From contig MGJB01000006.1 in assembly GCA_001794055.1 (NCBI GenBank), positions 90,168-154,167 on the forward strand: a DNA stretch of 64,000 nucleotides, read 5' to 3'. This stretch comes from Candidatus Yanofskybacteria bacterium RIFCSPHIGHO2_01_FULL_41_26 (GTDB lineage: Bacteria; Patescibacteriota; Minisyncoccia; 2-02-FULL-40-12; GWA2-44-9). The notes beneath the pieces are model-generated. The model had not been told where the DNA came from. It searched no databases and saw only the letters and a program-made list of their open reading frames with translations. Below, in pieces: positions 5,577 to 32,583 of this stretch (the stretch's first letter is position 1; each line of letters begins with the position of its first letter). The translations under genes and the position numbers were made by a program.

Positions 5577-5582
5577 ATTTTA

Positions 5583-6584: not shown

Positions 6585-6607
6585 TTTTTAATATTCTCGA
6601 TAGAACT

Positions 6608-8799: not shown

Positions 8800-8800
8800 A

Positions 8801-11848: not shown

Positions 11849-11876
11849 TTTGTGGTAATTTTGGCATAAAATAACA

Positions 11877-16798: not shown

Positions 16799-18037
16799 CT
16801 AAATTGCTTTCAAATAGTCGCCATGAACCCAAGCATCTTTGGCCTGGTATTTTATCTTATGCCATGAACCTGACTGGCCCAAACTTTCTAATACTTGTCC
16901 CAGTGGAAGTTTGCCTAAAATAATGCTTGAAGTGCCGGCTGACGTTCTCACGTTGAGTTGGTCGGTGCCAACAACTTTATATTGTTTTTTAACAACCGAA
17001 CTTGGTGTCGGTGTTGAAGACATGGTTTTTCTAGAATAATCAGGTATTTGATTAACGGAAGTATACGCTGTTCCCTGCGGATACCAATTAAATTCTTTTG
17101 TATTGATGCAAAATACTTTTTTGAAAAAGTCAGCATCATCCGCTACGGCTTGTTCACCGGTAGTGTTAACCCAGTGAAGCTTTCCGGTATCTTCGCCGGT
17201 CGTTTCTACTCCATAAACCTTTTTATCATTGGTTTCACAATTTCTGAAAAGGCCGGAAGTTACAAATAGATCCCTTGTCACAGACGTAGTACCTTTAACT
17301 TTGTTAAAACCGCCAAGATGGCCGTAGAATCCAAATATGGCAGGATTTAAGAATAACCTCTTGTAGCCATATGGATTGACTATGTAAACATCCGGGTCGC
17401 TTGAACCAGCCGCGCTGATAACATCGCCATCTTTCAAACTCGCAGCTGACAAACTTACAAATCCTCTTGAGGCCGGAGTTGATTTGCTTACGGAAACAGA
17501 AACCGGGACTGAAACTGGAGTCGGGGTTGCCGAAACCGCCGGACTCACAACTGGCGCGGGAGTTGGGGTTGTAGTAGTTGTAGTAGTTGTAGTTGTTGTA
17601 GTTGTTGTCGTCCCGCCCCCTCCACCACCACCTCCGCCACTAGAACCACCGACGCTGCCAGTAGAGCCGCAAATAGTTGAACTGGGTGTTATTATTACTG
17701 TTGTCGCAGCAGATACAGTCAGATTTAGAGTTGATTTGCTTTCGGCGCAGGAATATGAAAAACCGCCATCGTTTTCTAATAACTTTCGGCCGGCTGATTC
17801 GAGATTAAAACTCTGGCCGGCAGAAATCGTGACCGTTATTTGAGTGCTGCTTACTACCACCGAATCCGCATCGGAACCGCCTACTATGTTAAAGTTTCCC
17901 GAGTCAAGCTCTATGGTAGTATCTTCTGTAAAATAAGCATCGCCGACAGCTTTTGCATGGTTAACTCCGATCAAGAATATTCCACCAAGCAAGATGGCAA
18001 CGAGAACTAAGGAGGATTTGTTTTTTATTTGTTTCAT
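16799..18037 (-). CDS. secreted protein with poly-Gly/poly-Thr linker and C-terminal SH3b domain
   Basis: Start set at MKQIKNKSSLVLVAILLGG (signal/TM). Has a G11-T15-PTPAPV low-complexity linker and a C-terminal SH3_3-like VNVRTSAG...GSWHKIKY...GWVHGDYL. A roughly 115-aa module is homologous to the N-terminus of 28831..32583. Confidence 0.6.
   Translation of the reverse strand: MKQIKNKSSLVLVAILLGGIFLIGVNHAKAVGDAYFTEDTTIELDSGNFNIVGGSDADSVVVSSTQITVTISAGQSFNLESAGRKLLENDGGFSYSCAESKSTLNLTVSAATTVIITPSSTICGSTGSVGGSSGGGGGGGGGTTTTTTTTTTTTTTTPTPAPVVSPAVSATPTPVSVPVSVSVSKSTPASRGFVSLSAASLKDGDVISAAGSSDPDVYIVNPYGYKRLFLNPAIFGFYGHLGGFNKVKGTTSVTRDLFVTSGLFRNCETNDKKVYGVETTGEDTGKLHWVNTTGEQAVADDADFFKKVFCINTKEFNWYPQGTAYTSVNQIPDYSRKTMSSTPTPSSVVKKQYKVVGTDQLNVRTSAGTSSIILGKLPLGQVLESLGQSGSWHKIKYQAKDAWVHGDYLKAI
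17565..17640. repeat. coding trinucleotide repeat (Thr codons ACN x15 followed by Gly codons GGN x11 on the minus strand)
   Basis: gtagtagttgtagtagttgtagttgttgtagttgttgtcgtcccgccccctccaccaccacctccgcc seen directly. Confidence 0.7.
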
Positions 18038-18038: not shown

Positions 18039-18452
18039 TTATTTTTTTTGAAGTTGCATACTTCGAATAGTGTTAACAACCGGAGAGTCATCGTTTAGGT
18101 TTTCCCAGAACAATACTTGATCTTGATTTATTGTCATTTTGTCTTTGGGTTTATGAGGTTCAATCGCACCAAGTTTGACAAGTTGGCCAGCTCCATTTTC
18201 GTTAACTTTGACATAATAAACATCCGCCAGAATCAAATAATCAGAGCTAGCATTCTTTAAATGTCCAAAATATATCTGGTCATTTGTTAAAAATACGGCT
18301 TGAAATGTATTTGAATCTATAAAATCATTCCGGTCATAGCGATCATATGTAAGATAGTCCACAAAGAACTGCATCCCAACATAACCAATCGCAATAACCA
18401 GAACCGTCAAACCTACAGCCATGCCAACTAAGACATTCTTGTTTTTAGCCAT
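18039..18452 (-). CDS. hypothetical small membrane-anchored protein
   Basis: N-terminal TM helix (VLVGMAVGLTVLVIAIGYVGMQFF). No recognisable domain. Confidence 0.4.
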   Translation of the reverse strand: MAKNKNVLVGMAVGLTVLVIAIGYVGMQFFVDYLTYDRYDRNDFIDSNTFQAVFLTNDQIYFGHLKNASSDYLILADVYYVKVNENGAGQLVKLGAIEPHKPKDKMTINQDQVLFWENLNDDSPVVNTIRSMQLQKK

Positions 18453-18464
18453 ACTTGAATTATC

Positions 18465-19568
18465 TTACCTGCAAGATACTGTGCTAACAGTTAAAGCCGT
18501 GCCTCCGACATAAACACGAGCATAGACCGGCTTTCCTGCGGTATCTGTAAGTTGAAGACAAGATCCTTTGGTCCCATCAGAACTTCCAAAATACATACTT
18601 GCGGTGCCAGCCTTTACAAATTCAGCAACATATGCGGTGCTGGAACTGGCTACATTAGAACCAACAACAAGATTTCTCGTGATAAAAGCGTTTCCTGCCG
18701 AGGCATAACCAACTACTTCAAAATCAACTGCTACCGAAGCAGTGCCGTCCAAAAATGTCTTGCCATTTACTTCTAAAGCGCCTGTTAAAAGTAAGTCATT
18801 ACTGGCATCGATGTCCGTAGCATGACCAGTAGTAGCAGTTCCAAATCTTGAATATGCCACAGAAGCGGTCGCACCAGATAGACCAGCTACCTGAATTGCG
18901 TTTGGAGTGAAGAAATAAGATGCCGATGCCGTGCCTTGGACTTCAAACTTGGTTGAGGGTGTATCTCCAACGCCAACTCTCCGGTTTGTAGTATCGATGG
19001 TTAAAACGGTTGTAGTTCCAGCCGCATTTTGGAATCTGAAAGCAGTAGTGCTATCGTTATTCATTCCCGGCCTGACTTGACCGTTGGCTAAGAATAATAT
19101 TCCAGATACAGAAGCAACACTACCAAAAGAAGCCGTAGCTCTAACTTCTAAGTCGCCGACAATTAAAAGATCGTTAGTAGTTGTAATATAATTGGCGTGA
19201 TTGGTGGCAGAAGTACCAAATCTGTTATAGGCCACGGAGGCCACTCCGCCTACCTGCAATGTGTTAGCGGTCATTAAGTATGACGCAGAAGCTGTGCCTT
19301 GGACTTCAAAGGTTGTTGAAGGTGCGGCGCCGACACCTATTCGAGCATTTGTACTATCGCCTATAAGATAATTAGTACCGGCAGCATTTTGGAATCTAAC
19401 AGATGTAGTAGAATTAGCCGCTGGATTCACAAGAAAAGTACCCGTCGTACTCATGTTGGTCCCGATAGTGCTTGCAGCAAAAACGCCCAAGGGCGCAAGG
19501 ACAAAAACAGAAACTAAAGTGACTGAAAGAATCGACCAAGAAACCGACTGAAAGTTATATTTTTTCAT
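18465..19568 (-). CDS. secreted protein with internal tandem ~120-aa duplication
   Basis: Signal peptide. Two repeats, each RFQNAAGT...VGVG..PST.FEVQGTASASY...ASVAY.RFGT..T.HA......NDLL..G.LEV. Confidence 0.5.
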   Translation of the reverse strand: MKKYNFQSVSWSILSVTLVSVFVLAPLGVFAASTIGTNMSTTGTFLVNPAANSTTSVRFQNAAGTNYLIGDSTNARIGVGAAPSTTFEVQGTASASYLMTANTLQVGGVASVAYNRFGTSATNHANYITTTNDLLIVGDLEVRATASFGSVASVSGILFLANGQVRPGMNNDSTTAFRFQNAAGTTTVLTIDTTNRRVGVGDTPSTKFEVQGTASASYFFTPNAIQVAGLSGATASVAYSRFGTATTGHATDIDASNDLLLTGALEVNGKTFLDGTASVAVDFEVVGYASAGNAFITRNLVVGSNVASSSTAYVAEFVKAGTASMYFGSSDGTKGSCLQLTDTAGKPVYARVYVGGTALTVSTVSCR

Positions 19569-19631: not shown

Positions 19632-21233
19632 TTAAAATTCATACACCAAGAAAGAATACCCTACCCTGTCGATGGGTTGATAAAAAGAAGACCAATCAAG
19701 TCTGTCATCAAGCCGCATTTGGCTTAATTCTTTTAATCTTATAAGAAAATTAATATTTACAGCATACCTTCCCGATAGATTTGAAATAGATGTTTCTGTC
19801 GAAGGTATGATATTTTTAATCCCGTAATATTTCGGATCAAAATATATATTGGCATCCGAATTCACAATTTTCGTATCAGGGTATTTTTTTTGATATTCTG
19901 CAAGACGTTTTAAATCATGTTTCCATTCCAAGTTTGAGTCATCCAAATACTTATGTCCATTGGCGGACCCCCCGATAAATTCATTAAAGTAGGCCAAATA
20001 ATCCGGGTAGATGCTCACGGCAGAAAAAACATACCAAATGGCCAGAACAAAAATTAAAATGGTGCCTGTTTTAATTTTTGTTCTGGAATTTTCAATTTTA
20101 AATTTCCAATTTTCGGTTAACCTTACCAACCCTCCTGCATAAAGAGTCAGGAACGGAAAAACCGGTAATAGATAACGAACACCAAGATTATGGGCTTTTA
20201 AATTTGTGACGAACAAGAAAAAAACAACAGGCATAAATATAAATAGTTTGTCCCGATTACTGATATTTAATTTTTTATGGAAAACCAACGCAAACACCAA
20301 AGCAGCCAGCACAGGAATGGGAGTCTTTATCAAAAATGCTTCCAGAAAATAATACCACCAGCCGTTTTGTGAAAACTGGCCGTTCAAATAGAAACTATAA
20401 TAAATATTCGCATCGGCATAAACCATGTTTATGCCTTTTAAGTAAAACCCCGAGTCCGTCGGCATAAAGTAAGAAAAATACACAACCACAAAAGCAGGAA
20501 TAATCATTATGGCTGTCATTTTGACAAACCCGCTAACCACCGAGTTAAAATCATTTCGTCCTGACTTGGCATAAACAAAAATCAAAAATAAAATTACCGG
20601 CAAAAACACAACAGCCGAAAATTTAGAGCTCAATGCCAAACCAAGAAATAATCCAGAATAAATTAAATGCTTGTTAATATTGGTTTTGACAAATTTCCAC
20701 AAATAATAAAAAGCGACAAACGAGAAGAGGGCCAAAGCTAAATCAGTGGTCACAAATTGAGCATGGGCAATAATGTTAGGCATAAAGGCATAAAGAAATA
20801 AAGATAATAGGCCCGCTTTGGAATTGAACATTTCAAAAGCCCATCGATAAATATAAAACCCCAGCAAAACAGAAAAGAGCATGATCGGCAATCTTCCCCA
20901 AAACAACAACCTGTCCACATTATTGGAAGTCAAAAACTTTTTGCCGAATTTCCATTCATTTTTAAAAGGTCCGACTAAATCGGGGTCTTGACTGTCAAAT
21001 TTCAAATTCATAAACAACAAAGGAAAGGAGGAAATCAATTTTACAAAAGGCGGATGCTGAGGATTTAACGTAATTTGTCCCGTTTTCCAATAAGAATAGC
21101 CGCTTGGAAGATGAGTTATTTCGTCGCTTGCCGGACTGAAGTTTTGAGAGCTGAAAAACGGCAAAAGAAAAGTCACGGCCAATAGGAAAATTATAGCAAC
21201 CTTAACCATCAAACTGTTTGAAAATTGAATCAT
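19632..21233 (-). CDS. GT39/ArnT-like lipid-carrier-dependent glycosyltransferase (PMT_2 family, GT-C fold)
   Basis: Polytopic. First-loop DE motif (SPASDEITHLPSGYSYWKTGQ) and NPQHPPFVKL motif typical of the dolichyl/undecaprenyl-phosphate-sugar protein mannosyltransferase / ArnT family. Confidence 0.7.
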   Translation of the reverse strand: MIQFSNSLMVKVAIIFLLAVTFLLPFFSSQNFSPASDEITHLPSGYSYWKTGQITLNPQHPPFVKLISSFPLLFMNLKFDSQDPDLVGPFKNEWKFGKKFLTSNNVDRLLFWGRLPIMLFSVLLGFYIYRWAFEMFNSKAGLLSLFLYAFMPNIIAHAQFVTTDLALALFSFVAFYYLWKFVKTNINKHLIYSGLFLGLALSSKFSAVVFLPVILFLIFVYAKSGRNDFNSVVSGFVKMTAIMIIPAFVVVYFSYFMPTDSGFYLKGINMVYADANIYYSFYLNGQFSQNGWWYYFLEAFLIKTPIPVLAALVFALVFHKKLNISNRDKLFIFMPVVFFLFVTNLKAHNLGVRYLLPVFPFLTLYAGGLVRLTENWKFKIENSRTKIKTGTILIFVLAIWYVFSAVSIYPDYLAYFNEFIGGSANGHKYLDDSNLEWKHDLKRLAEYQKKYPDTKIVNSDANIYFDPKYYGIKNIIPSTETSISNLSGRYAVNINFLIRLKELSQMRLDDRLDWSSFYQPIDRVGYSFLVYEF

Positions 21234-21257
21234 TGAAAATTTATTGAAAATTGAAAA

Positions 21258-23072
21258 TTATAAATTGCTTTCGGCTATCTTTATCATCTCCCCTATCTCA
21301 GGAGCTTTGTTTCCGAATGTCTGTGCGTTTTTCAAATAAATTAATGCCTGTTTATATTCTTTTTTAACAAAATATGCGGTACCCACCACCGCGCTTATAT
21401 CAGGATTGTCTAAACTTGATCCAAAATATTTACTCATCATTTCCAATGCTTTGTCCGGTTTATTCAGGGCAATTTGAACATAAGAATACTTTATTATATA
21501 TTCTGCCGTAGCATAAAAATTTATAACTTTAAGAAAATTATCACCCGCCTCCTGAAGCCGTCCTTGTTTTAAATATAACCTTGCCAGGTTTATAGAAGAA
21601 TTTGTTGCATCTGGATTCAATTCTAAAGACTTTTTAAATTTTTCTTCGGCTAAAACATAATTTTTCTCATGATCAGCGACAACTCCCAACAAGTTCTGAA
21701 GATGAGAATTATTTTCGTATATGTTTCTAGCAATTTGAAGCTGTTCTTTAGCTAAATCCCACTCACCAGCTCTTATGTGTACGCCGGCCAATGCTGTTCT
21801 GGTAATTAGGCTATTGGGAGATTCTTTAACTGTTGCATTAAACAATGTCTGACTGTCACGCCAGTCCTTATTTCTTACGATGGTTCTAACACCATAAAAA
21901 ATTAAAACAACAGTCAAAAATCCGTATACCACTTTAGCATCCAATTTTTTATATTCAATAACTTTCTTCAAGATCCAAGCAATAATAATCGTAAAACCAA
22001 AAGATGGAAAATACATTAATCTTTCCCCCATTATTGTTCCCACCGGTTTAATCAAATTAGAAATAATAAGGTAGGGGAACAGGAATAATACTGCACCAAA
22101 AGAGATCTCTTTGTTTACTTTTTTATAAAAAACAATAAGAACAACCAACAAGATGAGGATCAGGATTCCGACCGCAGATTCAAGAGAAACAAAGGGATTG
22201 CTTACTGTTTGTATGGTATTAAAAGAATAATCCGCAGAAAGATGGATCGGCCATACCAATCTTTCGACATACATAAACAAAACCTTAAACGCCGTGAAAA
22301 TTCTTTCTAAAAAAGATGAAAAAATCAAATGATTTTCTACAATAGTTGTCGTAGCAGCTCCAAAGAAATAACTGCCCAAAGCTTTGTATCTTAATATCGC
22401 ATAAAGTCCGAACGGTAAAAAGAAAAAAAGCATATTTCCGATTGATTCCTTTATTTTTTTATGTAAAACAACAAAGTCAATATATAAAATTACCGGCAAC
22501 ACCATTAAGGCCGACTCCTTGCTTAATAGAGCCAATAAAAACGATATAGAACTTAATATCTTATTTTTATTAACAAAAAAATAAATACTGATGATACTGA
22601 ACAAGAACGATAAAAGCTCTGCTCTTCCAACAATAGAAGTTACCGCTTCAGTATGAATAGGATGGGTCAAAAACAACAAAAAAGTTGCGTAGGACAGGAA
22701 CTTATTTTTAAATAAAAAGTAAATCAGCCAAAAAACCAAAAAAGAATTTAGGACATGAATAATAATATTGACGACATGAAAACCAGCCGCTTGTCCCGAG
22801 CTTGTGGAAGAAGAAAGCGAACTATTTATATAATGATTGATGGCATAAGAAGCCATGGCCAAAGGGCGATAAAGTCCTGTTTTGGGCATATTTTGATGAT
22901 AAGGAGAGATAAAGAGATTAAAAAAATTACTTGGGTCTGTTAGATCGCCCCGATTTTGAACTACTGTTACGTCGTCAAACACAAACTCACCTGAAATACC
23001 GTTTCCGAAAACCAAAAAAGACAGAATAATTGCCAAAATAAAAATAATAACAAATTCCCGATTGAAAATCAT
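21258..23072 (-). CDS. TMTC/DUF1736-like polytopic membrane protein with C-terminal TPR repeats (putative GT-C glycosyltransferase)
   Basis: N-terminal roughly 400 aa multi-TM with a first-loop FDD motif (GEFVFDDVTVVQN). C-terminal TPRs (NLLGVVADHEKNYVLAEEKFKKSLELNPD...). Confidence 0.6.
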   Translation of the reverse strand: MIFNREFVIIFILAIILSFLVFGNGISGEFVFDDVTVVQNRGDLTDPSNFFNLFISPYHQNMPKTGLYRPLAMASYAINHYINSSLSSSTSSGQAAGFHVVNIIIHVLNSFLVFWLIYFLFKNKFLSYATFLLFLTHPIHTEAVTSIVGRAELLSFLFSIISIYFFVNKNKILSSISFLLALLSKESALMVLPVILYIDFVVLHKKIKESIGNMLFFFLPFGLYAILRYKALGSYFFGAATTTIVENHLIFSSFLERIFTAFKVLFMYVERLVWPIHLSADYSFNTIQTVSNPFVSLESAVGILILILLVVLIVFYKKVNKEISFGAVLFLFPYLIISNLIKPVGTIMGERLMYFPSFGFTIIIAWILKKVIEYKKLDAKVVYGFLTVVLIFYGVRTIVRNKDWRDSQTLFNATVKESPNSLITRTALAGVHIRAGEWDLAKEQLQIARNIYENNSHLQNLLGVVADHEKNYVLAEEKFKKSLELNPDATNSSINLARLYLKQGRLQEAGDNFLKVINFYATAEYIIKYSYVQIALNKPDKALEMMSKYFGSSLDNPDISAVVGTAYFVKKEYKQALIYLKNAQTFGNKAPEIGEMIKIAESNL

Positions 23073-24928
23073 TTTTGCAATTCTTTGATAAAACTTTTCA
23101 TCAATTCGCCAGTTTGAGGATCTAACTCGGCGTATTTTAACCCTGTTTGTAAATCTTTTAGGGCTTGGTCTTTATTATTAAGCGCGACATAAACCAGCGC
23201 CGAATTGTAATAAACACGAAGATTATTCGGGAGAAGAAGCTTAAGCTTTTCGATATTTTCAACGGCTTTAGTCAGGTTGCCTTGTTGAGCATATATAACC
23301 GACAAATTTTGATAAGGATAATAGAAGTTGGGATTAATTTCTATCGCTTTTTCGTATAACTTGATTGCTCCGTAAATATCCCCCCTAGATTGCAAAATAG
23401 TGCCTAAATTAAAATGAGGTTCGGCAAATATGTCACCTAGAGAGGCAGCGATTTTATAATATTTCTCGGCATTTTCCATGTCTTTTTTATTGTAATAGAT
23501 ATTTCCCACATTATTATTTATCCTGGAACTGTCCGGTTCATATTTTAGGATGTCAAGATAAAAAGCAAGCTGATTACCCCACAGAAGATTGCGCTGAATT
23601 GATTGATAAGCAAAGAAAGAAAAGTAGGCAACTAATACGGTGATCATCAAGATTCGACAGAGTTTCCAAGGGGTGGAAATCCCACTCCGAGAATTTTGGA
23701 TTTTCAAAAAGGTCGAATCTTTAAAATCCAAAAGTTTAACCAAATAAAAAGAAAAAACGAGCCAAAAACCAACCATTGGCAGATAGAGCCAATGCTCATA
23801 CATTAATGCATTTACCGGTGTAATACCGGAAACAGGTCCAAGAGAAATAAAAAACAACGCCACGCCAAAAAACCAGACCTGAAAAATTGCGGGTCGTAGG
23901 TTGTGAGTTGTGAGTTGACGCTTATACAGATGCCTTAGCCAAATCAATAATCCGATAAGGCCCAAAAAAATCGGCCAAACCGGCCACTGAAACAACGAGG
24001 TGTAGACAACAGCGCCTCTCTCCATGTGAAGACCCGTCGGAACTATCAAAAGTTTTAGATATTCCCACAGTATGGGCAGAAAGGTAAATACTCTGACATA
24101 TAGATTTTCAGAATAAATATTAGGTTCAGCGTAAAAATTAAGGGTATTCTGAAAATTTAAAACCGTAAGCCTCAAAATTCCATAAACGACAACTACTGCA
24201 AAATAAGGCCAAATTTTAATTAGGCCATGTTTTACGGATTTCAAAAATCGTTCTTTTGAGATAAAAGAAATATAAAAAGCGACAGCCAAAAACGGGAAAA
24301 TTATCGCAGTTTCCCGACTTAAAAGAGCCAAGACCAGAAAAACTAAGGACAGCACTCTATTCAAGGTTAAACCTTGTATCCTTCCAAGGTTTAACCTTGG
24401 AGTAGTTTCTGATCGATAGAACAAAATCAATGTCGCCAACATGAATGTCGTCACCAAAGCGTCTCCCCTGCCCGATATGTAGGTTATTGCCTCCGTTTGC
24501 AAAGGATGAATCAAAAATATCAAAGAAGTTAAAAATGCCACTGCCAAAGTTCGACCCTTTGAAATCCCAAGGTCAAACTTTTTTAACAATAAGAAAATTA
24601 AAATACCATTGGCCACATGAATCAAATTGCTCAGTAAATGATAGCTTAGCGGTTTAATACCTGAAATTATATAATTTAAAGCAAACGTAAAAAATAAAAA
24701 AGGTCTGTAATAATTACTTTTCAAGCCCACTCCCGCAAGAGTATTATGGGTAAGCCAGAATTTAATATTATCCCAGCTTATTGTGTGGACAAAATTATTT
24801 CTTATTATCCAATCCTCATCATCCCAAAACAACTGGTTATTCAAATTAAATGAGTAAATAAAGCCGCTTATGACGATAAGGACTACGATCGGCAGCCAAA
24901 CTTCTTTTTTTAACAGTAGTTTATTCAT
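23069..24928 (-). CDS. TMTC/DUF1736-like polytopic membrane protein with C-terminal TPR repeats (paralog)
   Basis: First-loop WDDED motif. C-terminal TPRs (NVGNIYYNKKDMENAEKYYKIAASLGD...GAIKLYEKAIEINPN...). Confidence 0.6.
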   Translation of the reverse strand: MNKLLLKKEVWLPIVVLIVISGFIYSFNLNNQLFWDDEDWIIRNNFVHTISWDNIKFWLTHNTLAGVGLKSNYYRPFLFFTFALNYIISGIKPLSYHLLSNLIHVANGILIFLLLKKFDLGISKGRTLAVAFLTSLIFLIHPLQTEAITYISGRGDALVTTFMLATLILFYRSETTPRLNLGRIQGLTLNRVLSLVFLVLALLSRETAIIFPFLAVAFYISFISKERFLKSVKHGLIKIWPYFAVVVVYGILRLTVLNFQNTLNFYAEPNIYSENLYVRVFTFLPILWEYLKLLIVPTGLHMERGAVVYTSLFQWPVWPIFLGLIGLLIWLRHLYKRQLTTHNLRPAIFQVWFFGVALFFISLGPVSGITPVNALMYEHWLYLPMVGFWLVFSFYLVKLLDFKDSTFLKIQNSRSGISTPWKLCRILMITVLVAYFSFFAYQSIQRNLLWGNQLAFYLDILKYEPDSSRINNNVGNIYYNKKDMENAEKYYKIAASLGDIFAEPHFNLGTILQSRGDIYGAIKLYEKAIEINPNFYYPYQNLSVIYAQQGNLTKAVENIEKLKLLLPNNLRVYYNSALVYVALNNKDQALKDLQTGLKYAELDPQTGELMKSFIKELQK

Positions 24929-26948
24929 TGAAATATTTACTTAAAAAATCTTTTGCCTGCGTATTGTTTTTATCCAATCTCACAGCTTCTTTGAAAAAGG
25001 CCTGGGCGTTTTCAAGCCGGCTTAAGTTCATATAAACCACTCCCAAAATAAAATAATATTGACTCTCTTTCAAGCCTAAATCAATCGCCATTTTTATATT
25101 TTCCGCCCCCAATTGCTGATTTTGTTTATCCGAGTAAGAAACGTGAATAAATCCTTTGTGGAGATAAGGATATGGATTTTTGGGATCAATTTTTATAACT
25201 TCATCGGCAAAATAAGCCGATGCTTCCAGCCAATCAATTTTAAACAAAACGCGTGACAAAATAAGATTTAGGTCGGCCTTGTTTTTATTTGAGTTTTTTA
25301 TATTAGCAGATATTTTATCTATGGCATTTTTATCAATAATGGAAAATTTAGAAATAACCCCGGTGTTTTTACTATTATTCTTAAGCAGAATGATTGCATC
25401 TTCGTTAATATAAACAATTTTCCAGTCCAGGTTTTTGGCAATATTTCTTAAAAAATTATCGGCCCAAGGCGTAACATCATTATATCCAAAAAATATGAAG
25501 TTGATGCCATATTTCCCTGAAAATTCAAGCCACTTTTTCTTATCCTCTTGCATCGGCTTATATGTCTCGCTAAAAAACTCAACCGAATATGCTTCTGGCC
25601 TGTTGTCAACAAAAACTTTCTCTTGGGGGTACAGCTGCCATATCAAATATCCTCCAATATCAAAATTATTAAACATTGGTCCTTTGATATTGTTTTGTTT
25701 GACAAAATCAACAGCTCTTTCCAGTCCATTCGGAACAGAAAAACCGGATACCCTGGAAACTCCCATATACCTGTAATATGTATTATTTGCCACAAAAAAA
25801 ATAAGCAAAATAATCAACGCGGAAAACAGAACTTTAAAAAAACTGCTCAATCTTTTAACTTGAGGTTTAACTTCAAGTTTATAGAGATTAAACCTCTGTA
25901 GAACATCTGCCAGTAGGATCGCCAATATCGGGAAAGACGCAAGCGCGTACAACGGCAAATTGCGTAACATCCTGAATCCAGCATACACAAAAAATGCCAT
26001 AGTAAGTATTTCAAAGACCCTTTGTTTCGATTTTTTTGCGGTCAGTATCAAAGAAATAACTAAAAGTACCACCGAAAGTTTAAAAATAAAAACCGGCAAA
26101 AGAAAACCTCTAAGGTTGGCCAGAAAAGAAAGGGTTTGATTCTCAACTATGTTGTATCCGTACTCGTTCAGCACTTTAAAGGGCAAAAGTGCACCTTGAA
26201 TTCCGTTCGGATTTATAAGTGTTGCCAAGCTGGTTAGTGATCCAATCAACACTATTCTGATAAGGTCCGACCTTTTAGAAACAAGCCGGTCTATGAGAAA
26301 TGCTAACAACAGAAATGGTCCGATAAAAAAATAAATGTGCAAATTTACCCAAAACAATTCCAAAATCGGCAAAAACCAGAGAAAAAAATAATTTTTTTCA
26401 TATTTTGCCTTTAATATAGCAAACAAGAAAAATGACAAAATGACGAAACTGAATATCTCCGGTCGGACTTCCGTTCGCTGGATAAATATGAACATTGAGA
26501 GAAGGAAAGATACTAAAAGAGACCAGAAACCTGTGGATAACCGACTTCGCAAGTCGGTTATCCACAGGTGTTTTATAGTAAAAAATAGTAACAAAAACGC
26601 AATCAGTACCAAGGCGGTTTTAACAAGAGTTAATCCGATAAATCCAAAGTAACTGAAAATACCAAAAAATATTACCTCGCTTAACCAGTGATGGTTGATA
26701 AAAGGGAAATCCGGCTCGGTAAAAGAAAATAAATTTGTCTTTGGAACCTCTTTTGTCTGCCAAATAATCTCGCCAACCTTAAGATGCCGACCGATATCTT
26801 GGCCGATAGTGTCAAAGTTGTGAATCAAAAAACTCCCCAAAAGTACAAAAATGAGAACAAATAAATAGTTTTTCTTAAGGAAGTACAACAATGGTTTTAC
26901 CATCGCATTGTTTTTCAAAAAGTTTGACATAGCCCCCTTCAGTAACAA
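24921..26948 (-). CDS. polytopic membrane protein with C-terminal TPR repeats (third paralog-like member of the array)
   Basis: Multi-TM N-terminal region. C-terminal TPR-like repeats (YFILGVVYMNLSRLENAQAFFKEAVRLDKNN). Contains an in-frame intact 39-bp REP (26530-26568) encoding HLWITDLRSRLST. Confidence 0.55.
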   Translation of the reverse strand: MLLKGAMSNFLKNNAMVKPLLYFLKKNYLFVLIFVLLGSFLIHNFDTIGQDIGRHLKVGEIIWQTKEVPKTNLFSFTEPDFPFINHHWLSEVIFFGIFSYFGFIGLTLVKTALVLIAFLLLFFTIKHLWITDLRSRLSTGFWSLLVSFLLSMFIFIQRTEVRPEIFSFVILSFFLFAILKAKYEKNYFFLWFLPILELFWVNLHIYFFIGPFLLLAFLIDRLVSKRSDLIRIVLIGSLTSLATLINPNGIQGALLPFKVLNEYGYNIVENQTLSFLANLRGFLLPVFIFKLSVVLLVISLILTAKKSKQRVFEILTMAFFVYAGFRMLRNLPLYALASFPILAILLADVLQRFNLYKLEVKPQVKRLSSFFKVLFSALIILLIFFVANNTYYRYMGVSRVSGFSVPNGLERAVDFVKQNNIKGPMFNNFDIGGYLIWQLYPQEKVFVDNRPEAYSVEFFSETYKPMQEDKKKWLEFSGKYGINFIFFGYNDVTPWADNFLRNIAKNLDWKIVYINEDAIILLKNNSKNTGVISKFSIIDKNAIDKISANIKNSNKNKADLNLILSRVLFKIDWLEASAYFADEVIKIDPKNPYPYLHKGFIHVSYSDKQNQQLGAENIKMAIDLGLKESQYYFILGVVYMNLSRLENAQAFFKEAVRLDKNNTQAKDFLSKYFNE
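26530..26568. repeat. REP palindrome (39 bp, perfect) inserted in-frame in a CDS
   Basis: cctgtggataaccgacttcgcaagtcggttatccacagg. Same sequence as the RAYT-flanking copies. Confidence 0.85.
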
Positions 26949-27522
26949 AATTTCCCCGTGTATCCACTAGCCGGCCGTATTGGATTTTGGCGGCCATTTC
27001 ATATCGCTTGTACTTGGGGCTATCCGGCAATATCACGCCCAACAAACTTTCTCCGTTGGGAATAGGGATATTGGAAAATATATTCGGTCCGACCGATATG
27101 TCATCCTGGGGAGTTACCGTCCAAAAAACATTTCTTCCCGGATGATCAATCCCTTTGTAGACAAACAGGGCATCCTGATTGTCATAAGTATTATGATCCA
27201 AAAATTTTATTTCGCCTTTCAATTCACAAGAAGCATCAGCCAAGAGCAGCGACCAGGGCACAGTTTCGCCAACAAAAGATGTCTGGCCATTGCCGGTGGG
27301 AAGCGGAACTGGAACCTTAGTTACGTTTGGTCTTACTGCGCCCTCCGTAGCCCCTGGCGAAGGACGGAGAATAGGAGGAGACGAGACTGTCGGAGATACT
27401 GATGGCTCCGGATAATTAACGACATCAGGTGCCTGAAGGATATTAGATGTCCAAATATAAAACCCTACAAAAAATAAGCCTGCCACTAAAATAACCACCA
27501 AAATAATATTGTTTTTAGACAT
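26875..27522 (-). CDS. hypothetical secreted Pro-rich protein
   Basis: N-terminal TM/signal (MSKNNIILVVILVAGLFFVGFYIW), then a Pro/Ser-rich linker. Overlaps the upstream gene start region. Confidence 0.45.
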   Translation of the reverse strand: MSKNNIILVVILVAGLFFVGFYIWTSNILQAPDVVNYPEPSVSPTVSSPPILRPSPGATEGAVRPNVTKVPVPLPTGNGQTSFVGETVPWSLLLADASCELKGEIKFLDHNTYDNQDALFVYKGIDHPGRNVFWTVTPQDDISVGPNIFSNIPIPNGESLLGVILPDSPKYKRYEMAAKIQYGRLVDTRGNFVTEGGYVKLFEKQCDGKTIVVLP

Positions 27523-27540: not shown

Positions 27541-28719
27541 TTAACGTGAAAAGTCAAAATATCCAGAAAAAAGAGCTCTCAAACCACTCACAACAAATGT
27601 CCATGGACTTGACGATTTAACTTGAAACTCAGGAATAGTAAGAGGAATAGAAACAAAATCAGGGTCATGTTCTGATTTGCGATAATGACCATAAATATAG
27701 ACTTTGTATTGCTTTGTGAAGTCCAGCCCAAGGCCATCATAAATAAATGACTTATCTTGATTACCCTCCGTTACTTTCATCTGTTTGGTCCAAAGGGGAA
27801 TTTGAGCATTTTTATCATCAGAAATCATAATCAAATAGTCAGGGGTAGAGTCAACGGGCCAACTGCTAGCTATGCTCCACTTAAAAGTTGGATAGATTCC
27901 TGCTGTTCGCTGGTTATCAGTTGGACTTAAAATATCCACGGGGCTCAAGAACATCAATTTGGTTTCCGATGATGGCCGGGTTTCCTGTCCGTCTTTATCC
28001 GCGCCCACGACATAATAGATGTACTCCCCTTCTGAATAGTTTGCCGCCGGCAAGTATGCAACCGCGTCCCTTCCGCCGGGAGGCACGATTCTCTGAATAG
28101 ACCAGTACCCGCATTGGCCCGCTTCGGTCATCATCCATTCTCCGTCAATATCTATGTCTTCACAACCGGTTGAGGGCATCTCTTCAAAAGTAGCAACTCG
28201 GACAAAATATGCATGACCTGGCTTTTTTTCATACAATCGGAAATTCTCAATTTTGTCCGCCTCTTCATCAGAATATTTAAAAACAATCCTTTGGCCGATA
28301 CGGCCGAAGTTTGAGGTGATATGAGAAATAAGCCAATCAGCTCTTATGTAATCCGGGGCCGGAAATTGAAGATTAACTTTTGCTGGAATGAGCGGAACAG
28401 AAGAAACACTCGGAATTGGAGTCGTTGTGCCCTCCGTAGCCTTTGGCGAAGAGTGGGGCGAGGCCGACTCTAAAACAATTGGTTCTCCTTCTTTAATAGA
28501 TGCTACTTCTTTTTTGGAAACAACTTTTACGCTTTGCCATTTAAAATTACGAAAGTTAAACACTTCAATACTGCTTACCCACTTCTTTGTATTGTTATTG
28601 ATTAAGTAAACCTTAATATCGCCTTTGGCCCTTAACAGTGTTCCGTCCAGATAGCCGGCATTTGCGGCAAAGGAAAACGAGAAGAACAAGACCAAAATTA
28701 AAAACCTAATTTTTGACAT
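27541..28719 (-). CDS. hypothetical secreted protein
   Basis: Signal peptide MSKIRFLILVLFFSFSFAANA. Ser/Pro linker (SPKATEGTTTPIPSVSSVP) sharing a roughly 25-nt motif with the neighbouring gene. Confidence 0.5.
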   Translation of the reverse strand: MSKIRFLILVLFFSFSFAANAGYLDGTLLRAKGDIKVYLINNNTKKWVSSIEVFNFRNFKWQSVKVVSKKEVASIKEGEPIVLESASPHSSPKATEGTTTPIPSVSSVPLIPAKVNLQFPAPDYIRADWLISHITSNFGRIGQRIVFKYSDEEADKIENFRLYEKKPGHAYFVRVATFEEMPSTGCEDIDIDGEWMMTEAGQCGYWSIQRIVPPGGRDAVAYLPAANYSEGEYIYYVVGADKDGQETRPSSETKLMFLSPVDILSPTDNQRTAGIYPTFKWSIASSWPVDSTPDYLIMISDDKNAQIPLWTKQMKVTEGNQDKSFIYDGLGLDFTKQYKVYIYGHYRKSEHDPDFVSIPLTIPEFQVKSSSPWTFVVSGLRALFSGYFDFSR

Positions 28720-31800: not shown

Positions 31801-32583
31801 TGTCTTACCTGAAGTCAATCTTTTTGCTCCATCGTAGACATATACATTACCAAAGTCATCAGTGGTACCAGGGCCTAATCTCTTAAGAGTCACGGTGTTG
31901 ACTGTACCCGAACCACTTACTCTAACTCTTAACATCTCAACTCCGGTGGCATTGTTGGTAATAGTCTGGGCTGACGGATTTCCAGGCGCCAACATAACCG
32001 ACAACGGTCCTGAAACTACTGGAGCCGGGGCAGCAACTGAACCGCCTCTTGCATAAGCAGGAACTTGATTTACTGAAGAGTAATTAGAACCTACAGAATA
32101 CAGAGCAAATTCAGCCGCATTGATGACGAAAACCTTCTTGAAGAAATTCGGATCATCGGCAACCGCCTGTGCACCAGAGGTATTAACCCAGTGCAACACG
32201 GCTACATCTTCTCCGGTTGTTTCTATTCCATAAACTTTCTCATCTCCGTCAACTCGGAATAAACCGGAAGTTACAAATGCATCTCTGGCAGCAGCAGATA
32301 CATTCTTAACACTGGCAAATCCTCCGAGGTGTCCGTAAAGATTAAAGATTTGCGGATTCAAGAATAATCTCTTGTATCCCCAATCGTTGACGATATAGAC
32401 ATCCGGGTCATCAGAACCGGCTGCGCTAATCGTGTTGCCTTCTTTCAAACCATAGTCTGAAGGAGCAACTGCGAAAGCTGTAAGAGACAGCACTCCCGAA
32501 AGGGATAGTACCGTCGAAACAGCTGTAAGGATCGCGGCGGTTTTTATCAAACCGACACGATTGCCTTTTAATAAATTCGACAT
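28831..32583 (-). CDS. large secreted cell-surface protein (1250 aa), S-layer/adhesin-like
   Basis: N-terminal signal/TM. N-terminal roughly 115-aa module homologous to the 16799..18037 protein (SAAGSDDPDVYIVN..GYKRLFLNP.IF..YGHLGGF). The rest is T/S/G/A/N/D-rich, predicted beta-rich repeats. Long 5' leader. Confidence 0.7.
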   Translation of the reverse strand: MSNLLKGNRVGLIKTAAILTAVSTVLSLSGVLSLTAFAVAPSDYGLKEGNTISAAGSDDPDVYIVNDWGYKRLFLNPQIFNLYGHLGGFASVKNVSAAARDAFVTSGLFRVDGDEKVYGIETTGEDVAVLHWVNTSGAQAVADDPNFFKKVFVINAAEFALYSVGSNYSSVNQVPAYARGGSVAAPAPVVSGPLSVMLAPGNPSAQTITNNATGVEMLRVRVSGSGTVNTVTLKRLGPGTTDDFGNVYVYDGAKRLTSGKTFSSASGEASFLLNIAVDGSKDLSFVGDILTGGAGNVNYFQLLGVTAAGGSVVSGAPLSGNNFAISGASSGRLDVAKVGSLSDPTVGQKQAQLSEFKLTANTEAASVKRLTMLNDGTLKPADLTNVKLKTGAMEWAGSVTSTNYLVFDLGSGYTISKGGNATFKVYGDVGGKKDETVDLYFETAPDVWAVGDQYGQGMDTTNATAAQGIAALDTAAEATTLTLMGGALTLVYNGPNATTIGTQVADVTLLRFSMTAASNIEIKQTEFTICADSGNDGTYDNAATEGDWDDLNDVKVWNEDTNTVVMGPKDGTAFDHADDSGSCPDNATGAQEQFTDTLDLLAGVTYNFKVTGDVDTSLGSGTQLLDTDSVFKVILDDYSDDTAAVSKMKYAGTNTAVASADIVPRSDIAGSNITITSSALTLSLAGSPTDQTKIRGMKDVDAVGITFAAGQASALKVTTIKITGYAADSGATLDEGTDTTDTGISIANATAKVQLYEAGTGVLIAGSDKISSNLLGTSGTGTMTFSNLDWNIPAGTSKTMLVRVDLSNNTASGTAGDVYSFDIAATGDVTSLDSDSNTVNPGAAAVNGTTTPTQVLTVKNSGSMTLATAASSPVKGALYWGQVNAPVSKFRLTATDEAQYIEKLTIAASSSDEDTSAKNVKNVILTYKTKSGATMTKFQSFSNAASANFNWSTTDADRPYVPKDASLEIAVNADMKTKDEGATQTTGTTADTTLVAFSLDLVDRYDGSFTNGFRAVGEGSGTVLDGTSTNINDVSGAYNQTVYRVFPKIEQVALSSPYSLIGTPTVFKFSVTAMGLATANLRFDNEHNGSGSINFEVVASGDSHVNTTTSTTFSVLDEQGTVIDGPSALRGLGTPGAADTSQTISMGNGSSGVRPDWNASISFNFTGQDIEIAGGETRTFSIRLNNPTQHYANAGTTGRAADYFQVTLQDDLAGLINWVGNYDNTTNSLDTPSATGIIRSLPLYGPTFQR

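What the first reader, a model, noticed from the sequence alone, without database searches (positions are those of the whole stretch)
19632..26948. Tandem array of four GT-C-type membrane enzymes (GT39/ArnT-like + three TM-TPR paralogs) next to secreted Thr/Pro-rich proteins
GT39 PMT enzymes O-mannosylate proteins in actinobacteria and eukaryotes, and eukaryotic TMTC1-4 (multi-TM + TPR, DUF1736) are protein O-mannosyltransferases. Three TMTC-like paralogs follow the GT39-like gene here, two with first-loop DD/DDE motifs. They are flanked by secreted proteins carrying poly-Thr/Pro linkers (16799-18037 and 33161-37075) and by the 1250-aa surface protein (28831-32583). This supports a dedicated surface-protein O-glycosylation system in this lineage.
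Basis: inference. Interest (0 to 1): 0.65.

Follow-up and report, generated by a model that had tools for sequence, protein, structure and literature searches.

The report
Surface-layer glycosylation gene cluster in Parcubacteria
Four neighbouring membrane sugar-transferase genes in an uncultured, tiny-celled bacterium (Candidatus Yanofskybacteria) belong to a gene cluster, conserved across related lineages, that also encodes the likely cell-surface-layer protein, so they probably decorate the cell surface with sugars; whether the target is protein or a wall polymer is unproven.

Summary
The four tandem minus-strand genes are real and all are GT-C-type, but they form three sequence families, not 'one plus three paralogs'.

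- **P1** (19632-21233) passes the Pfam PMT and PMT_2 thresholds.
- **P2** (21258-23072) and **P3** (23069-24928) are true paralogs. Both are TMTC-like, with a DD first loop, YRP, HPxxTEA, (K/R)E and ExxxY motifs, and C-terminal TPRs.
- **P4** (24921-26903) has no detectable sequence similarity to the others. A pLDDT-90 AlphaFold model matches STT3, DPY19, ALG12, AglB, PglB and ArnT. Its family is large (about 27,000 clusters at 50% identity) and has no Pfam model.

The window comes from Candidatus Yanofskybacteria. In about 33 of 80 related Patescibacteria loci, P4 lies within 10 kb of a homolog of the 1250-aa S-layer-like protein. P3 (and often P2), a small anchored protein, a GT4 cluster and a short GT2 resembling polyprenyl-phosphate-sugar synthases usually lie there too.

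Ser/Thr/Pro-rich linkers do flank the array, but they also occur in exported proteins elsewhere in the window.

Best reading (about 0.5): lipid-phosphate-sugar-dependent glycosylation of surface proteins outside the membrane. Main rival (about 0.3): decoration of a cell-wall glycopolymer. The sugar, the acceptor and the activity are all untested.

The parts
19632..21233 (-). P1: PMT/ArnT-clan GT-C glycosyltransferase, 533 aa, no TPR
   Evidence: Pfam PMT_2 at 2.7e-14 and PMT at 2e-7, both above their cut-offs. First-loop D37-E38-x-x-H41 and K204 are invariant in 12 orthologs. Its position within the locus varies between genomes.
21258..23072 (-). P2: TMTC-like GT-C enzyme with a C-terminal TPR domain, 604 aa
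   Evidence: TMTC_DUF1736 scores 24.7 bits, below the 27-bit cut-off, in P2 itself. Seven of 8 sequences in alignment A3 (P2, P3 and six P2 homologs) match it, best E 1.3e-8, and PF08409 is precomputed on most of the listed homologs. Motifs FVFDD, LYRP, HPIHTEAV, GRAE, SKES and GERLMY correspond to TMTC motifs M1-M4 and M7 of PMC7801869. AlphaFold model pLDDT 82.
23069..24928 (-). P3: divergent paralog of P2 (TMTC-like membrane domain plus TPRs), 619 aa
   Evidence: BLASTP against P2 gives E 2e-27 over the full length. hhalign gives 100% probability, E 9e-42. Conserved D36 D37 D39, R75 P76, H141 P142 T145 E146, R154 D156, R205 E206, H301 E303, and E378 H379 Y382 in 30 orthologs. No DUF1736 hit. 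It is the GT-C gene most often found beside the 1250-aa protein homolog.
24921..26903 (-). P4: GT-C-fold membrane protein of a family with no Pfam model, with a periplasmic alpha/beta domain and about 4 TPR-like repeats, 660 aa (the ORF extends to a TTG at 26948)
   Evidence: 100% identical to the NCBI Yanofskybacteria protein P0001. AlphaFold pLDDT 90, pTM 0.86. Foldseek against PDB gives STT3, DPY19, ALG12, AglB, PglB and ArnT at E 1e-5 to 1e-3, TM-score 0.39-0.49. No Pfam family matches the membrane domain in 36 members. 27,031 clusters at 50% identity match at E<=1e-3. D36, R143, R147, E149, N187, H189, E254, N255, R314 and N315 are conserved in 81 homologs.
26875..27522 (-). 215-aa membrane-anchored protein with a Pro/Ser/Thr linker, overlapping the P4 start by 29 nt
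   Evidence: No family hit. Homologs lie near P4 or P3 in many related loci. Ser+Thr+Pro window 0.50.
27541..28719 (-). 392-aa exported protein with a Ser/Thr/Pro linker, first gene of the likely operon
   Evidence: Signal-like N-terminus and a Ser+Thr+Pro window of 0.57. Syntenic in the closest loci.
28831..32583 (-). 1250-aa S-layer-like surface protein: the candidate acceptor, or a protein anchored to the glycan
   Evidence: Signal-like N-terminus; 11.8% Thr, 11.1% Ala, 10.3% Gly, 0.2% Cys. The listed full-length homologs are about 1190-1310 aa and all are unnamed. It lies within 10 kb of P4 homologs in about 33 of 80 loci. Size and composition fit the 1131-1274-aa, six-Ig-like-domain S-layer proteins proposed for Patescibacteria in preprint 10.1101/2024.05.28.596244, but homology to those proteins was not tested. 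A hairpin at 28741-28785 separates it from the downstream operon.
33161..37075 (-). 1304-aa exported protein with lamin-tail domains, a beta-propeller and two long Ser/Thr/Pro linkers
   Evidence: Pfam LTD at 1.3e-24. Ser+Thr+Pro window 0.83. Syntenic in related loci.
16799..18037 (-). Exported protein with a Gly8-Thr15-Pro/Ser/Val linker, a copy of the N-terminal domain of the 1250-aa protein, and a C-terminal SH3_3 domain
   Evidence: Sequence. SH3_3 at 5e-11. Residues 219-363 are 64% identical to residues 46-188 of the 1250-aa protein, E 2e-59.
18039..19568 (-). Two small exported or anchored proteins (137 aa and 367 aa) that travel with the locus
   Evidence: No family hits. The order 367 aa - 137 aa - SH3 protein recurs in the related loci.
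13136..15385 (-). Wzy_C (O-antigen-ligase/polymerase-type) membrane protein with TPRs, 749 aa
   Evidence: Pfam Wzy_C at 1e-19 plus TPRs. Present in many related loci.
9961..10728 (-). Short GT2, the candidate polyprenyl-phosphate-sugar synthase (donor supply)
   Evidence: Pfam Glycos_transf_2 at 9e-33. Best NCBIfam matches are AglJ 2.9e-27, ArnC-type 8e-23, PgfS 3.4e-21, PpgS, and Dol-P hexose transferase, all below their curated cut-offs. A homolog lies near P4 in about 18 related loci.
1274..13139 (.). Cytoplasmic glycan-assembly cluster: nine GT4 genes, the GT2 above and a GT11-like gene
   Evidence: Pfam scans. In a second clade, P4 sits directly after the last GT4 gene of such a cluster.

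Best explanation
The four genes are part of a lineage-conserved cell-surface glycosylation locus of Parcubacteria.

Proposed mechanism:
1. A cytoplasmic GT2 (9961-10728) loads a single sugar onto polyprenyl phosphate.
2. [quoted passage not shown]
3. There, GT-C enzymes use a conserved first-loop aspartate to transfer the sugar. The enzymes are P1 (PMT/ArnT clan), P2 and P3 (TMTC-like) and P4 (a GT-C family with no Pfam model).
4. The acceptors are hydroxyl groups of exported proteins. Candidates are the co-encoded 1250-aa S-layer-like protein and the Ser/Thr/Pro-rich linkers of neighbouring anchored proteins.
5. The TPR domains outside the membrane select or hold the acceptor.

Shown: gene structure, family or fold of each enzyme, conserved catalytic-type residues, and synteny.

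Inferred: topology, donor, sugar identity, protein as the acceptor, and any activity at all.
For: - Families and folds: P1 passes the Pfam PMT and PMT_2 cut-offs. P2 carries TMTC motifs and its family matches DUF1736. P3 is a full-length paralog of P2. The P4 model (pLDDT 90) matches STT3, DPY19, ALG12, AglB, PglB and ArnT.
- Link to the PMT clan: the P2/P3 profile aligns with the P1 profile at 76.7% probability, E 2e-5, over 121 columns, pairing P2 K185 with P1 K204.
- First-loop acidic residues are conserved in all four families.
- Operon-like spacing.
- A GT2 resembling Dol-P/Und-P-sugar synthases lies in the same locus, here and in related genomes.
- Synteny with the 1250-aa protein and small exported proteins holds in about 33 of 80 loci, and P3 stays next to the 1250-aa protein homolog through rearrangements.
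- Four of the exported proteins near the array carry Ser/Thr/Pro-rich tracts.
- Precedents: streptococcal GtrB/PgtC2 and PgfS/PgfM1 glycosylate Ser/Thr-rich disordered regions by this GT-A plus GT-C route (PMC11092751). TMTC and TMEM260 enzymes, which also have TPRs, O-mannosylate cadherins and IPT domains respectively (PMC7801869; PMC10214176).
Against: - No direct evidence identifies the acceptor. Bacterial GT-C enzymes often act on lipids or polysaccharides, ArnT for example, and from general knowledge bacterial TPR domains also bind polysaccharides.
- The locus holds a large GT4 cluster and a Wzy_C protein, which fits glycopolymer synthesis equally well.
- Ser/Thr/Pro-rich linkers also occur elsewhere in the window, so their presence beside the array is weak evidence.
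- No flippase or initiating phosphoglycosyltransferase was found in the window.
- The GT-C fold of P2 was not shown by structure search, because TPR hits filled the list.
- Profile searches of PDB sequences found no GT-C enzyme for any of the four.
- In the more distant P4 homologs, no linked locus genes were detected.
Confidence: 0.5

Rival explanations
1. The GT-C enzymes decorate or extend a cell-wall glycopolymer or lipoglycan, not proteins. The polymer would be made by the adjacent GT4/GT2/Wzy_C genes. The S-layer-like protein and the SH3 protein would bind that polymer through their shared N-terminal domain. This would resemble the clustering of S-layer genes with secondary-cell-wall-polymer genes in Firmicutes, and the use of lipid-phosphate-sugar donors by ArnT, Emb/Aft and YfhO on non-protein acceptors.
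For: - Nine GT4 genes, a GT2 and a Wzy_C-TPR protein lie in the same locus.
- In a second clade, P4 lies directly after a GT4 gene at the edge of such a cluster.
- A weak NCBIfam match links P2 to a 'cell surface glycopolymer formation protein' family (1.2e-6, below cut-off).
- A 143-aa domain that is 64% identical between the 1250-aa protein and the SH3 protein could be a wall-polymer-binding module.
- YfhO-family GT-C enzymes glycosylate teichoic acids in Bacillus and Listeria (stated in PMC11092751).
Against: - P2 keeps the motif set of TMTC enzymes, whose substrates are proteins.
- P3 stays next to the 1250-aa protein homolog rather than next to the GT4 genes when the locus is rearranged.
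- Ser/Thr/Pro-rich linkers typical of O-glycosylated proteins are abundant in the co-encoded proteins.
- None of these points is decisive.
Confidence: 0.3
2. P4 is an oligosaccharyltransferase-like enzyme. It would move a complete lipid-linked oligosaccharide, built by the GT4 cluster, onto the S-layer protein, N- or O-linked, as archaeal AglB does. P1-P3 would add single sugars.
For: - The best structural matches of P4 are OST catalytic subunits (STT3, AglB, PglB), and they cover its periplasmic domain too.
- P4 is adjacent to GT4 clusters in many loci.
- The best NCBIfam match of the GT2 is AglJ, from archaeal S-layer N-glycosylation.
- The preprint notes that the Patescibacteria S-layer protein resembles the Haloferax one in architecture.
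Against: - TM-scores of 0.39-0.49 do not separate STT3 from DPY19, ALG12 or ArnT.
- The P4 sequence has no WWD motif.
- N-X-S/T sequons are not enriched in the 1250-aa protein (z 1.3) or in 117 orthologs (mean z 0.1).
- No initiating phosphoglycosyltransferase or flippase was found in the window.
Confidence: 0.08
3. The TPR membrane proteins are non-catalytic scaffolds or chaperones for export and assembly of the surface layer.
For: From general knowledge, TPR domains often mediate assembly. The genes lie tightly beside the S-layer-like gene.
Against: Catalytic-type residues are conserved across orthologs in all four families: first-loop Asp, the Lys/Arg-Glu pair and ExxxY. This is not expected of inactive scaffolds.
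Confidence: 0.04

Closest known systems
Metazoan TMTC1-4 protein O-mannosyltransferases (CAZy GT105)
   Same: P2, and more loosely P3, share the architecture of a multi-pass GT-C module followed by TPRs on the non-cytoplasmic side. They also share the motifs DD (first loop), YRP, R-x-D/E, K/R-E-T/S and E-R/H-x-x-Y, and 'HPIHT' (PMC7801869). Prokaryotic full-length TMTC homologs were already noted in that paper.
   Different: Bacterial, so the donor would be a bacterial polyprenyl phosphate rather than dolichyl phosphate. P2 itself scores just under the DUF1736 cut-off and P3 does not match at all. Substrates and sugar are unknown, and no bacterial member has been characterised in the papers found.
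PMT/POMT (GT39), actinobacterial Pmt, and ArnT (GT83)
   Same: P1 passes the Pfam PMT and PMT_2 cut-offs and has a conserved first-loop Asp-Glu.
   Different: No MIR domain and no PMT_4TMC domain were detected. It has a distinct, conserved C-terminal soluble domain of about 110 aa. The best NCBIfam match is a weak hit to archaeal Agl23. Whether it acts on protein or lipid is unknown.
Streptococcal GtrB/PgtC2 and PgfS/PgfM1 pathways (PMC11092751)
   Same: The logic is the same: a GT-A enzyme makes a polyprenyl-phosphate-sugar, and a GT-C enzyme transfers the sugar outside the membrane to Ser/Thr-rich disordered linkers of anchored proteins. The Pgf genes are clustered with their adhesin substrates. 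The window's GT2 matches PgfS at 3.4e-21.
   Different: The GT-C enzymes there belong to the YfhO family and the paper does not mention TPRs. Here there are three other GT-C families, three of the four proteins carry TPRs, and the locus centres on an S-layer-like protein.
S-layer glycosylation gene clusters of Firmicutes, Bacteroidota and Archaea (e.g. Tannerella forsythia, PMC6120980; Haloferax Agl pathway)
   Same: A surface-layer structural gene is co-located with many glycosyltransferases and a membrane transferase. A Wzy_C-type protein, the family of known bacterial O-oligosaccharyltransferases (my own knowledge), is present.
   Different: From my own knowledge, those systems transfer a preassembled glycan with a Wzy_C- or AglB-type enzyme. 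TMTC-like or PMT-clan enzymes are not part of them.
STT3/AglB/PglB oligosaccharyltransferases (GT66), DPY19 C-mannosyltransferase (GT98) and ALG12
   Same: These are the best structural matches of P4 over the membrane module, and partly over the periplasmic domain.
   Different: No sequence similarity. No WWD motif in the P4 sequence. A TPR tail is present in only 14 of 36 aligned family members.

Membership tests
GT39 / PMT (protein O-mannosyltransferase), tested on P1 | Match to the Pfam PMT or PMT_2 models above the curated cut-off | tested here: met
   PMT_2 scores 54.1 bits (cut-off 26.1) and PMT scores 31.3 bits (cut-off 22.7).
GT39 / PMT, tested on P1 | Conserved acidic Asp-Glu pair in the first extracytoplasmic loop | tested here: met
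   D37-E38 are invariant in 12 orthologs. The loop's position outside the membrane is inferred from the N-terminal Lys and the first helix.
GT39 / PMT, tested on P1 | MIR domain (eukaryotic PMTs) and C-terminal PMT_4TMC domain | tested here: not met
   The Pfam scan at E<=0.01 shows only PMT and PMT_2.
GT39 / PMT, tested on P1 | Transfers mannose from polyprenyl-phosphate-mannose to Ser/Thr of proteins | not testable with these tools
   Needs biochemistry or glycoproteomics.
TMTC / GT105, tested on P2 | DUF1736 loop (Pfam PF08409) | tested here: inconclusive
   P2 scores 24.7 bits against a 27-bit cut-off. Seven of the 8 A3 sequences match, best E 1.3e-8. PF08409 is precomputed on most of the listed homologs.
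TMTC / GT105, tested on P2 | Conserved motifs M1-M7 of PMC7801869 (DD; SHKSYRP; RxD; KE(T/Q)xxT; DW; ERxxY) | tested here: met
   D33 D34; Y68 R69 P70; R150-x-E152; K185 E186 S187; D281 Y282 (Y282 conserved); and E350 R351 x x Y354. Most are conserved in >=90% of 23 orthologs. M3 has Glu in place of Asp, and M5 has Tyr in place of Trp.
TMTC / GT105, tested on P2 and P3 | C-terminal TPR domain after the membrane module | tested here: met
   Multiple Pfam TPR families match P2 residues 426-584 and P3 residues 459-605. The P2 model has TPR-like helix pairs from 407 to 602.
TMTC / GT105, tested on P3 | DUF1736 loop and the full motif set | tested here: not met
   P3 has no DUF1736 hit. M7 is E-H-W-L-Y, with His where TMTCs have the strictly conserved Arg, and M5 is H-M-E. 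P3 is nevertheless a clear full-length paralog of P2.
GT-C fold superfamily, tested on P2/P3 | GT-C fold of the membrane module by structure comparison | tested here: inconclusive
GT-C fold superfamily, tested on P4 | GT-C fold with a conserved Asp in the first extracytoplasmic loop | tested here: met
   The pLDDT-90 model matches STT3, DPY19, ALG12, AglB, PglB and ArnT at E 1e-5 to 1e-3. D36 is conserved in >=90% of 81 homologs.
Oligosaccharyltransferase GT66 (STT3/AglB/PglB), tested on P4 | WWDYG-type motif in the periplasmic domain, and sequence similarity to the family | tested here: not met
   There is no WWD in the sequence. The single sequence and the profile found no PDB relatives. No Pfam STT3 hit in 36 members.
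Any named Pfam family, tested on the P4 membrane domain | Profile match at E<=1 | tested here: not met
   Only TPR families and scattered chance-level hits in 36 members.
Three-component extracytoplasmic glycosylation (GT-A lipid-P-sugar synthase plus GT-C transferase) | Polyprenyl-phosphate-sugar synthase encoded with the GT-C enzymes | tested here: inconclusive
   The GT2 at 9961-10728 best matches AglJ, ArnC, PgfS and PpgS, but every score is below the curated cut-off. It co-occurs with P4 in about 18 related loci.

The most novel reading that the evidence does not exclude
Parcubacteria glycosylate their S-layer protein with TMTC-type enzymes. If so, TPR-guided O-glycosylation of folded, beta-rich surface domains, known only from animal cadherins and plexins, would have a bacterial counterpart and possible origin. 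P4 would found a large, unrecognised GT-C family that couples a cytoplasmically built glycan to the cell surface.
Probability: 0.2. Interest if true: 0.75.

Novelty: new variant of a known kind. Interest (0 to 1): 0.5.

Why it matters
Patescibacteria are abundant, mostly uncultured episymbionts, and their surface is how they meet their hosts. A conserved locus joining the likely S-layer protein to three families of lipid-sugar-dependent transferases gives concrete, testable candidates for how that surface is built and decorated.

It also offers a bacterial model for TMTC-type enzymes, which matter in human disease. The P4 family (about 27,000 clusters at 50% identity, no Pfam model) is flagged as an unannotated GT-C family worth curating.

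Tried and rejected
- **PDB sequence searches.** Single-sequence phmmer with P1, P2 and the P4 membrane domain found only TPR hits or nothing. Profile searches with A1 (P4), A3 and A5 (P2/P3 membrane domains) and A4 (P1 orthologs) found no GT-C enzyme.
- **P4 as a paralog of P2/P3.** Rejected.
- **N-glycosylation of the 1250-aa protein.** Sequon counts are not enriched. The idea is not supported, but it is not excluded.
- **Naming the neighbours.** PDB, PHROGs and NCBIfam gave nothing for the 1250-aa, 392-aa, 367-aa, 215-aa and 137-aa proteins, apart from one unknown-function PHROG hit on the N-terminus of the 392-aa protein.
- **Homolog search with the 1250-aa protein.** It returned only unnamed proteins, so the link to the preprint's S-layer proteins rests on size and composition alone.
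- **Literature.** Searches found no study of TMTC-like or PMT-like enzymes in Patescibacteria.
- **Promoter and terminator scan.** Too noisy to define the operon beyond the hairpin after the 1250-aa gene.

Full report
**What is there**

Four consecutive ORFs lie on the minus strand:
- P1, 19632-21233, 533 aa
- P2, 21258-23072, 604 aa
- P3, 23069-24928, 619 aa
- P4, 24921-26948, 675 aa from a TTG start

P4 and P3 overlap by 8 nt, P3 and P2 overlap by 4 nt, and 24 nt separate P2 from P1. This suggests one transcript. An identical protein in NCBI (P0001, Candidatus Yanofskybacteria bacterium RIFCSPLOWO2_01_FULL) starts at Met16. The homologs align from that position as well. P4 is therefore best taken as 24921-26903 (660 aa), overlapping the upstream 215-aa gene by 29 nt, as in the related locus L003.

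**Family of each protein**

P1 passes the curated cut-offs of Pfam PMT_2 (54.1 bits against 26.1) and PMT (31.3 bits against 22.7). It has no TPR, MIR or PMT_4TMC domain. Its first loop carries D37-E38-x-x-H41, invariant in 12 orthologs.

P2 has about five TPRs and a DUF1736 match just below the cut-off (24.7 bits against 27). Seven of the 8 sequences in alignment A3 match DUF1736, best E 1.3e-8. Most of the listed homologs carry PF08409 in the precomputed table, and one is named 'protein O-mannosyl-transferase' by JGI.

The motifs that Eisenhaber et al. defined for human TMTC1-4 (PMC7801869) can be read directly in P2:
- FVFDD (D33-D34)
- LYRP (68-70)
- HPIHTEAV (137-144; compare TMTC3 'LLFAVHPIHT')
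- GRAE (149-152)
- SKES (184-187)
- GERLMY (349-354)

Most of these are conserved in at least 90% of 23 orthologs.

P3 is a full-length paralog of P2. BLASTP gives 22% identity, E 2e-27, and hhalign gives 100% probability, E 9e-42 over 385 columns. It has a DDED first loop but diverged motifs, and it does not match DUF1736.

A combined P2/P3 profile aligns with the P1 profile at 76.7% probability (E 2e-5, 121 columns). The alignment pairs P2 K185 with P1 K204. That is a modest link to the PMT clan.

**P4 is a different family**

P4 shows no sequence similarity to P1, P2 or P3 beyond its TPR tail. No Pfam family matches its membrane domain in any of 36 family members. No PDB sequence matches either.

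An AlphaFold model built from 36 sequences is confident (pLDDT 90, pTM 0.86). Foldseek places it in the GT-C fold. The matches are STT3, DPY19, ALG12, AglB, PglB and ArnT, at E 1e-5 to 1e-3 and TM-score 0.39-0.49.

The model has about 12-13 membrane helices, a periplasmic alpha/beta domain (about residues 385-510) and about four TPR-like repeats. Only 14 of 36 aligned homologs have the TPR tail.

Residues conserved in at least 90% of 81 homologs include:
- D36-x-G-R-H in the first loop
- R143, R147, P148 and E149
- N187 and H189
- E254 and N255
- R314 and N315
- the periplasmic motifs NNxD and DxRPE

The family is large. 27,031 clusters at 50% identity match at E<=1e-3, and 5,293 match at E<=1e-30. 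In the species-representative genomes, 377 loci encode a relative. Most of the 80 listed carry Patescibacteria-type titles such as Yanofsky-, Portnoy-, Paceibacterota, Levyi- and Beckwithbacteria. Some carry 'uncultured Saccharibacteria', 'uncultured Gammaproteobacteria' or 'uncultured Pseudomonadales' titles that I suspect are placeholders; this was not checked.

So 'four GT-C-type enzymes in tandem' holds, but 'three paralogs' does not. There are three families.

**Surroundings**

Downstream of the array (lower coordinates) lie:
- a 367-aa exported repeat protein
- a 137-aa anchored protein
- a protein with a Gly8-Thr15-Pro/Ser/Val linker and a C-terminal SH3_3 domain
- a glucose/sorbosone-dehydrogenase-like protein
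- a 749-aa Wzy_C protein with TPRs

Upstream (higher coordinates) lie:
- a 215-aa anchored protein and a 392-aa exported protein
- the 1250-aa protein
- a 1304-aa protein with lamin-tail domains

Positions 1274-13139 hold nine GT4 genes, a GT2 and a GT11-like gene.

The GT2 (9961-10728) best matches enzymes that load a sugar onto polyprenyl phosphate: AglJ, ArnC-type, PgfS, PpgS and a Dol-P hexose transferase. All scores are below the curated cut-offs. GT-C enzymes need exactly that kind of donor.

No flippase and no initiating phosphoglycosyltransferase were found in the window.

Ser/Thr/Pro-rich tracts (fraction of at least 0.5 in a 30-aa window) occur in four of the exported proteins near the array. 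They also occur in an FKBP isomerase (44045-44584) and in the protein at 49572-50438. They are thus a general feature of exported proteins here, which weakens 'flanking' as evidence but fits a general glycosylation system.

**Conservation of the locus**

Contigs carrying P4 orthologs show the same order. The order is lamin-tail protein, a roughly 1240-aa protein, (a roughly 400-aa protein), a roughly 205-aa protein, P4, P3, P2, three small exported proteins, (P1), the dehydrogenase-like protein, and the Wzy_C-TPR protein.

I searched six-frame ORFs of the 80 loci from the genome scan with the window's proteins and with ortholog profiles. About 33 of the 80 loci have a homolog of the 1250-aa protein within 10 kb of P4. 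P3, and often P2, is usually there too.

Several patterns stand out:
- P1 changes position or is absent.
- P3 stays next to the 1250-aa protein homolog through rearrangements (for example L026, L033, L035, L042, L046, L065, L087).
- In a second clade, a shorter P4 without TPRs sits directly after a GT4 gene at the edge of a GT4/GT2 cluster, between that cluster and the surface-protein genes.
- In the most distant homologs, no linked genes were detected with these queries.

**The 1250-aa protein**

- It has a signal-like N-terminus.
- It is rich in Thr, Ala, Gly and Ser and nearly free of Cys.
- A hairpin follows the gene.
- Its listed full-length homologs are about 1190-1310 aa and all are unnamed.
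- A preprint on S-layer prediction proposes 1131-1274-aa proteins with six Ig-like domains as the S-layer proteins of many Patescibacteria classes, and cites expression data in support (10.1101/2024.05.28.596244, supplement).
- The window's protein fits by size and composition, but I could not test homology.
- Residues 46-188 are 64% identical to residues 219-363 of the SH3 protein. This may be a shared anchoring module.

**How it most likely works**

Shown: the genes, their families or folds, conserved catalytic-type residues, operon-like spacing, and synteny.

Inferred: the GT2 makes a polyprenyl-phosphate-sugar. P1-P4 use it outside the membrane, with the first-loop Asp as catalytic base and the Lys/Arg-Glu pair and ExxxY binding the phosphate and a metal ion, as modelled for TMTCs. 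The TPR domains face outward and select acceptors.

Precedents for protein acceptors are the streptococcal GtrB/PgtC2 and PgfS/PgfM1 systems acting on Ser/Thr-rich linkers (PMC11092751), and the TPR-bearing TMTC and TMEM260 enzymes, which O-mannosylate cadherins and IPT domains respectively (PMC10214176). I put this reading at about 0.5.

The main rival, at about 0.3, is decoration of a wall glycopolymer made by the GT4/Wzy_C genes, to which the surface proteins might bind.

A variant in which P4 acts like an oligosaccharyltransferase is possible but has little support. There is no WWD motif and no sequon enrichment, with z 1.3 for the protein and mean z 0.1 in 117 orthologs.

**Comparison with the known, and novelty**

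Bacterial full-length TMTC homologs have been noted in the literature but not characterised. PMT-clan genes are also a known kind. I found no paper on such enzymes in Patescibacteria.

What is new here:
- the conserved linkage of TMTC-like enzymes and a PMT-clan enzyme to an S-layer-like protein
- the recognition of the P4 family as a large GT-C-fold family with no Pfam model

This is a new variant of a known kind of system, resting on inference only. Interest is moderate, 0.5.

**Seen in passing**

A perfect palindrome (CCTGTGGATAACCGACTT-GCG-AAGTCGGTTATCCACAGG) flanks a Y1 transposase-like ORF on both sides. It also sits in-frame inside P4, and as a decayed copy inside the GT2. The peptide it encodes recurs in loops of P4 and P3 orthologs in other genomes. 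A GC-rich islet lies next to tRNA-Trp.

Noticed in passing
window 37799-37837, 38548-38586, 26529-26569, 10498-10535: A perfect 18-19-nt-arm palindrome (CCTGTGGATAACCGACTT-GCG-AAGTCGGTTATCCACAGG) flanks both ends of a Y1 (IS200-like) transposase ORF at 37802-38536. That ORF's best NCBIfam match is 'REP-associated tyrosine transposase' (5.7e-11, below cut-off). A third full copy lies in-frame inside P4, encoding 'DLRSRLSTG' in the only low-confidence loop of the model. A decayed copy lies in-frame inside the GT2 gene. Seven arm matches were found against 0.03 expected by chance.
   Followed up: partly
L016 and L019 (P4 orthologs); L016 and L036 (P3 orthologs): The peptide encoded by the palindrome, 'WI(T/N/I)DLRSRLSTG', appears as an insertion at the same P4 loop in two other Yanofskybacteria genomes, and in a P3 loop in two genomes. 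It is absent from most orthologs. This looks like recurrent in-frame insertion of a REP-like element into membrane-protein loops, reminiscent of Rickettsia palindromic elements.
   Followed up: partly
window 24360-24401 and 20042-20086: Two other long palindromes lie inside coding sequence. One has 15-17-nt arms in P3, at the 16-aa insertion relative to P2. The other has 18-20-nt arms in P1, in a loop of variable length among orthologs. They are not copies of the palindrome above.
   Followed up: partly
window 28831-32583 (residues 46-188) and 16799-18037 (residues 219-363): The S-layer-like protein and the SH3-domain protein share a 143-aa domain at 64% identity (E 2e-59). It matches no known family and may be a shared cell-wall-anchoring or assembly module.
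   Followed up: partly
window 46680-48050: A GC-rich islet (up to 0.65 GC against a background of about 0.38) lies next to tRNA-Trp (46604-46680). It has no Rfam match even at E<=1. It holds small GC-rich ORFs (46856-47176, 106 aa, with an AGGAGG ribosome-binding site; 47334-47591, 85 aa). The 46700-47300 stretch folds with z = -13. It is probably a small foreign insertion at a tRNA gene.
   Followed up: partly
window 44045-44584: A membrane-anchored FKBP-type peptidyl-prolyl isomerase carries a Ser/Thr/Pro-rich linker (fraction 0.60). This parallels the O-glycosylated disordered tail of the streptococcal foldase PrsA described in PMC11092751.
   Followed up: no
window 13136-15385: A 749-aa Wzy_C (O-antigen-ligase/polymerase-type) membrane protein fused to TPRs lies four genes from the array and is present in many related loci. 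It could be an O-oligosaccharyltransferase or a polymerase for the glycan made by the GT4 cluster.
   Followed up: partly
window 33161-37075: The 1304-aa lamin-tail-domain protein has an N-terminal region with His/Asp-rich motifs (for example 'HLLHLLEDMGVPDHTRND') that look like a zinc-dependent nuclease or phospholipase C fold. If so, it would be a surface nuclease. This rests on reading the sequence only.
   Followed up: no
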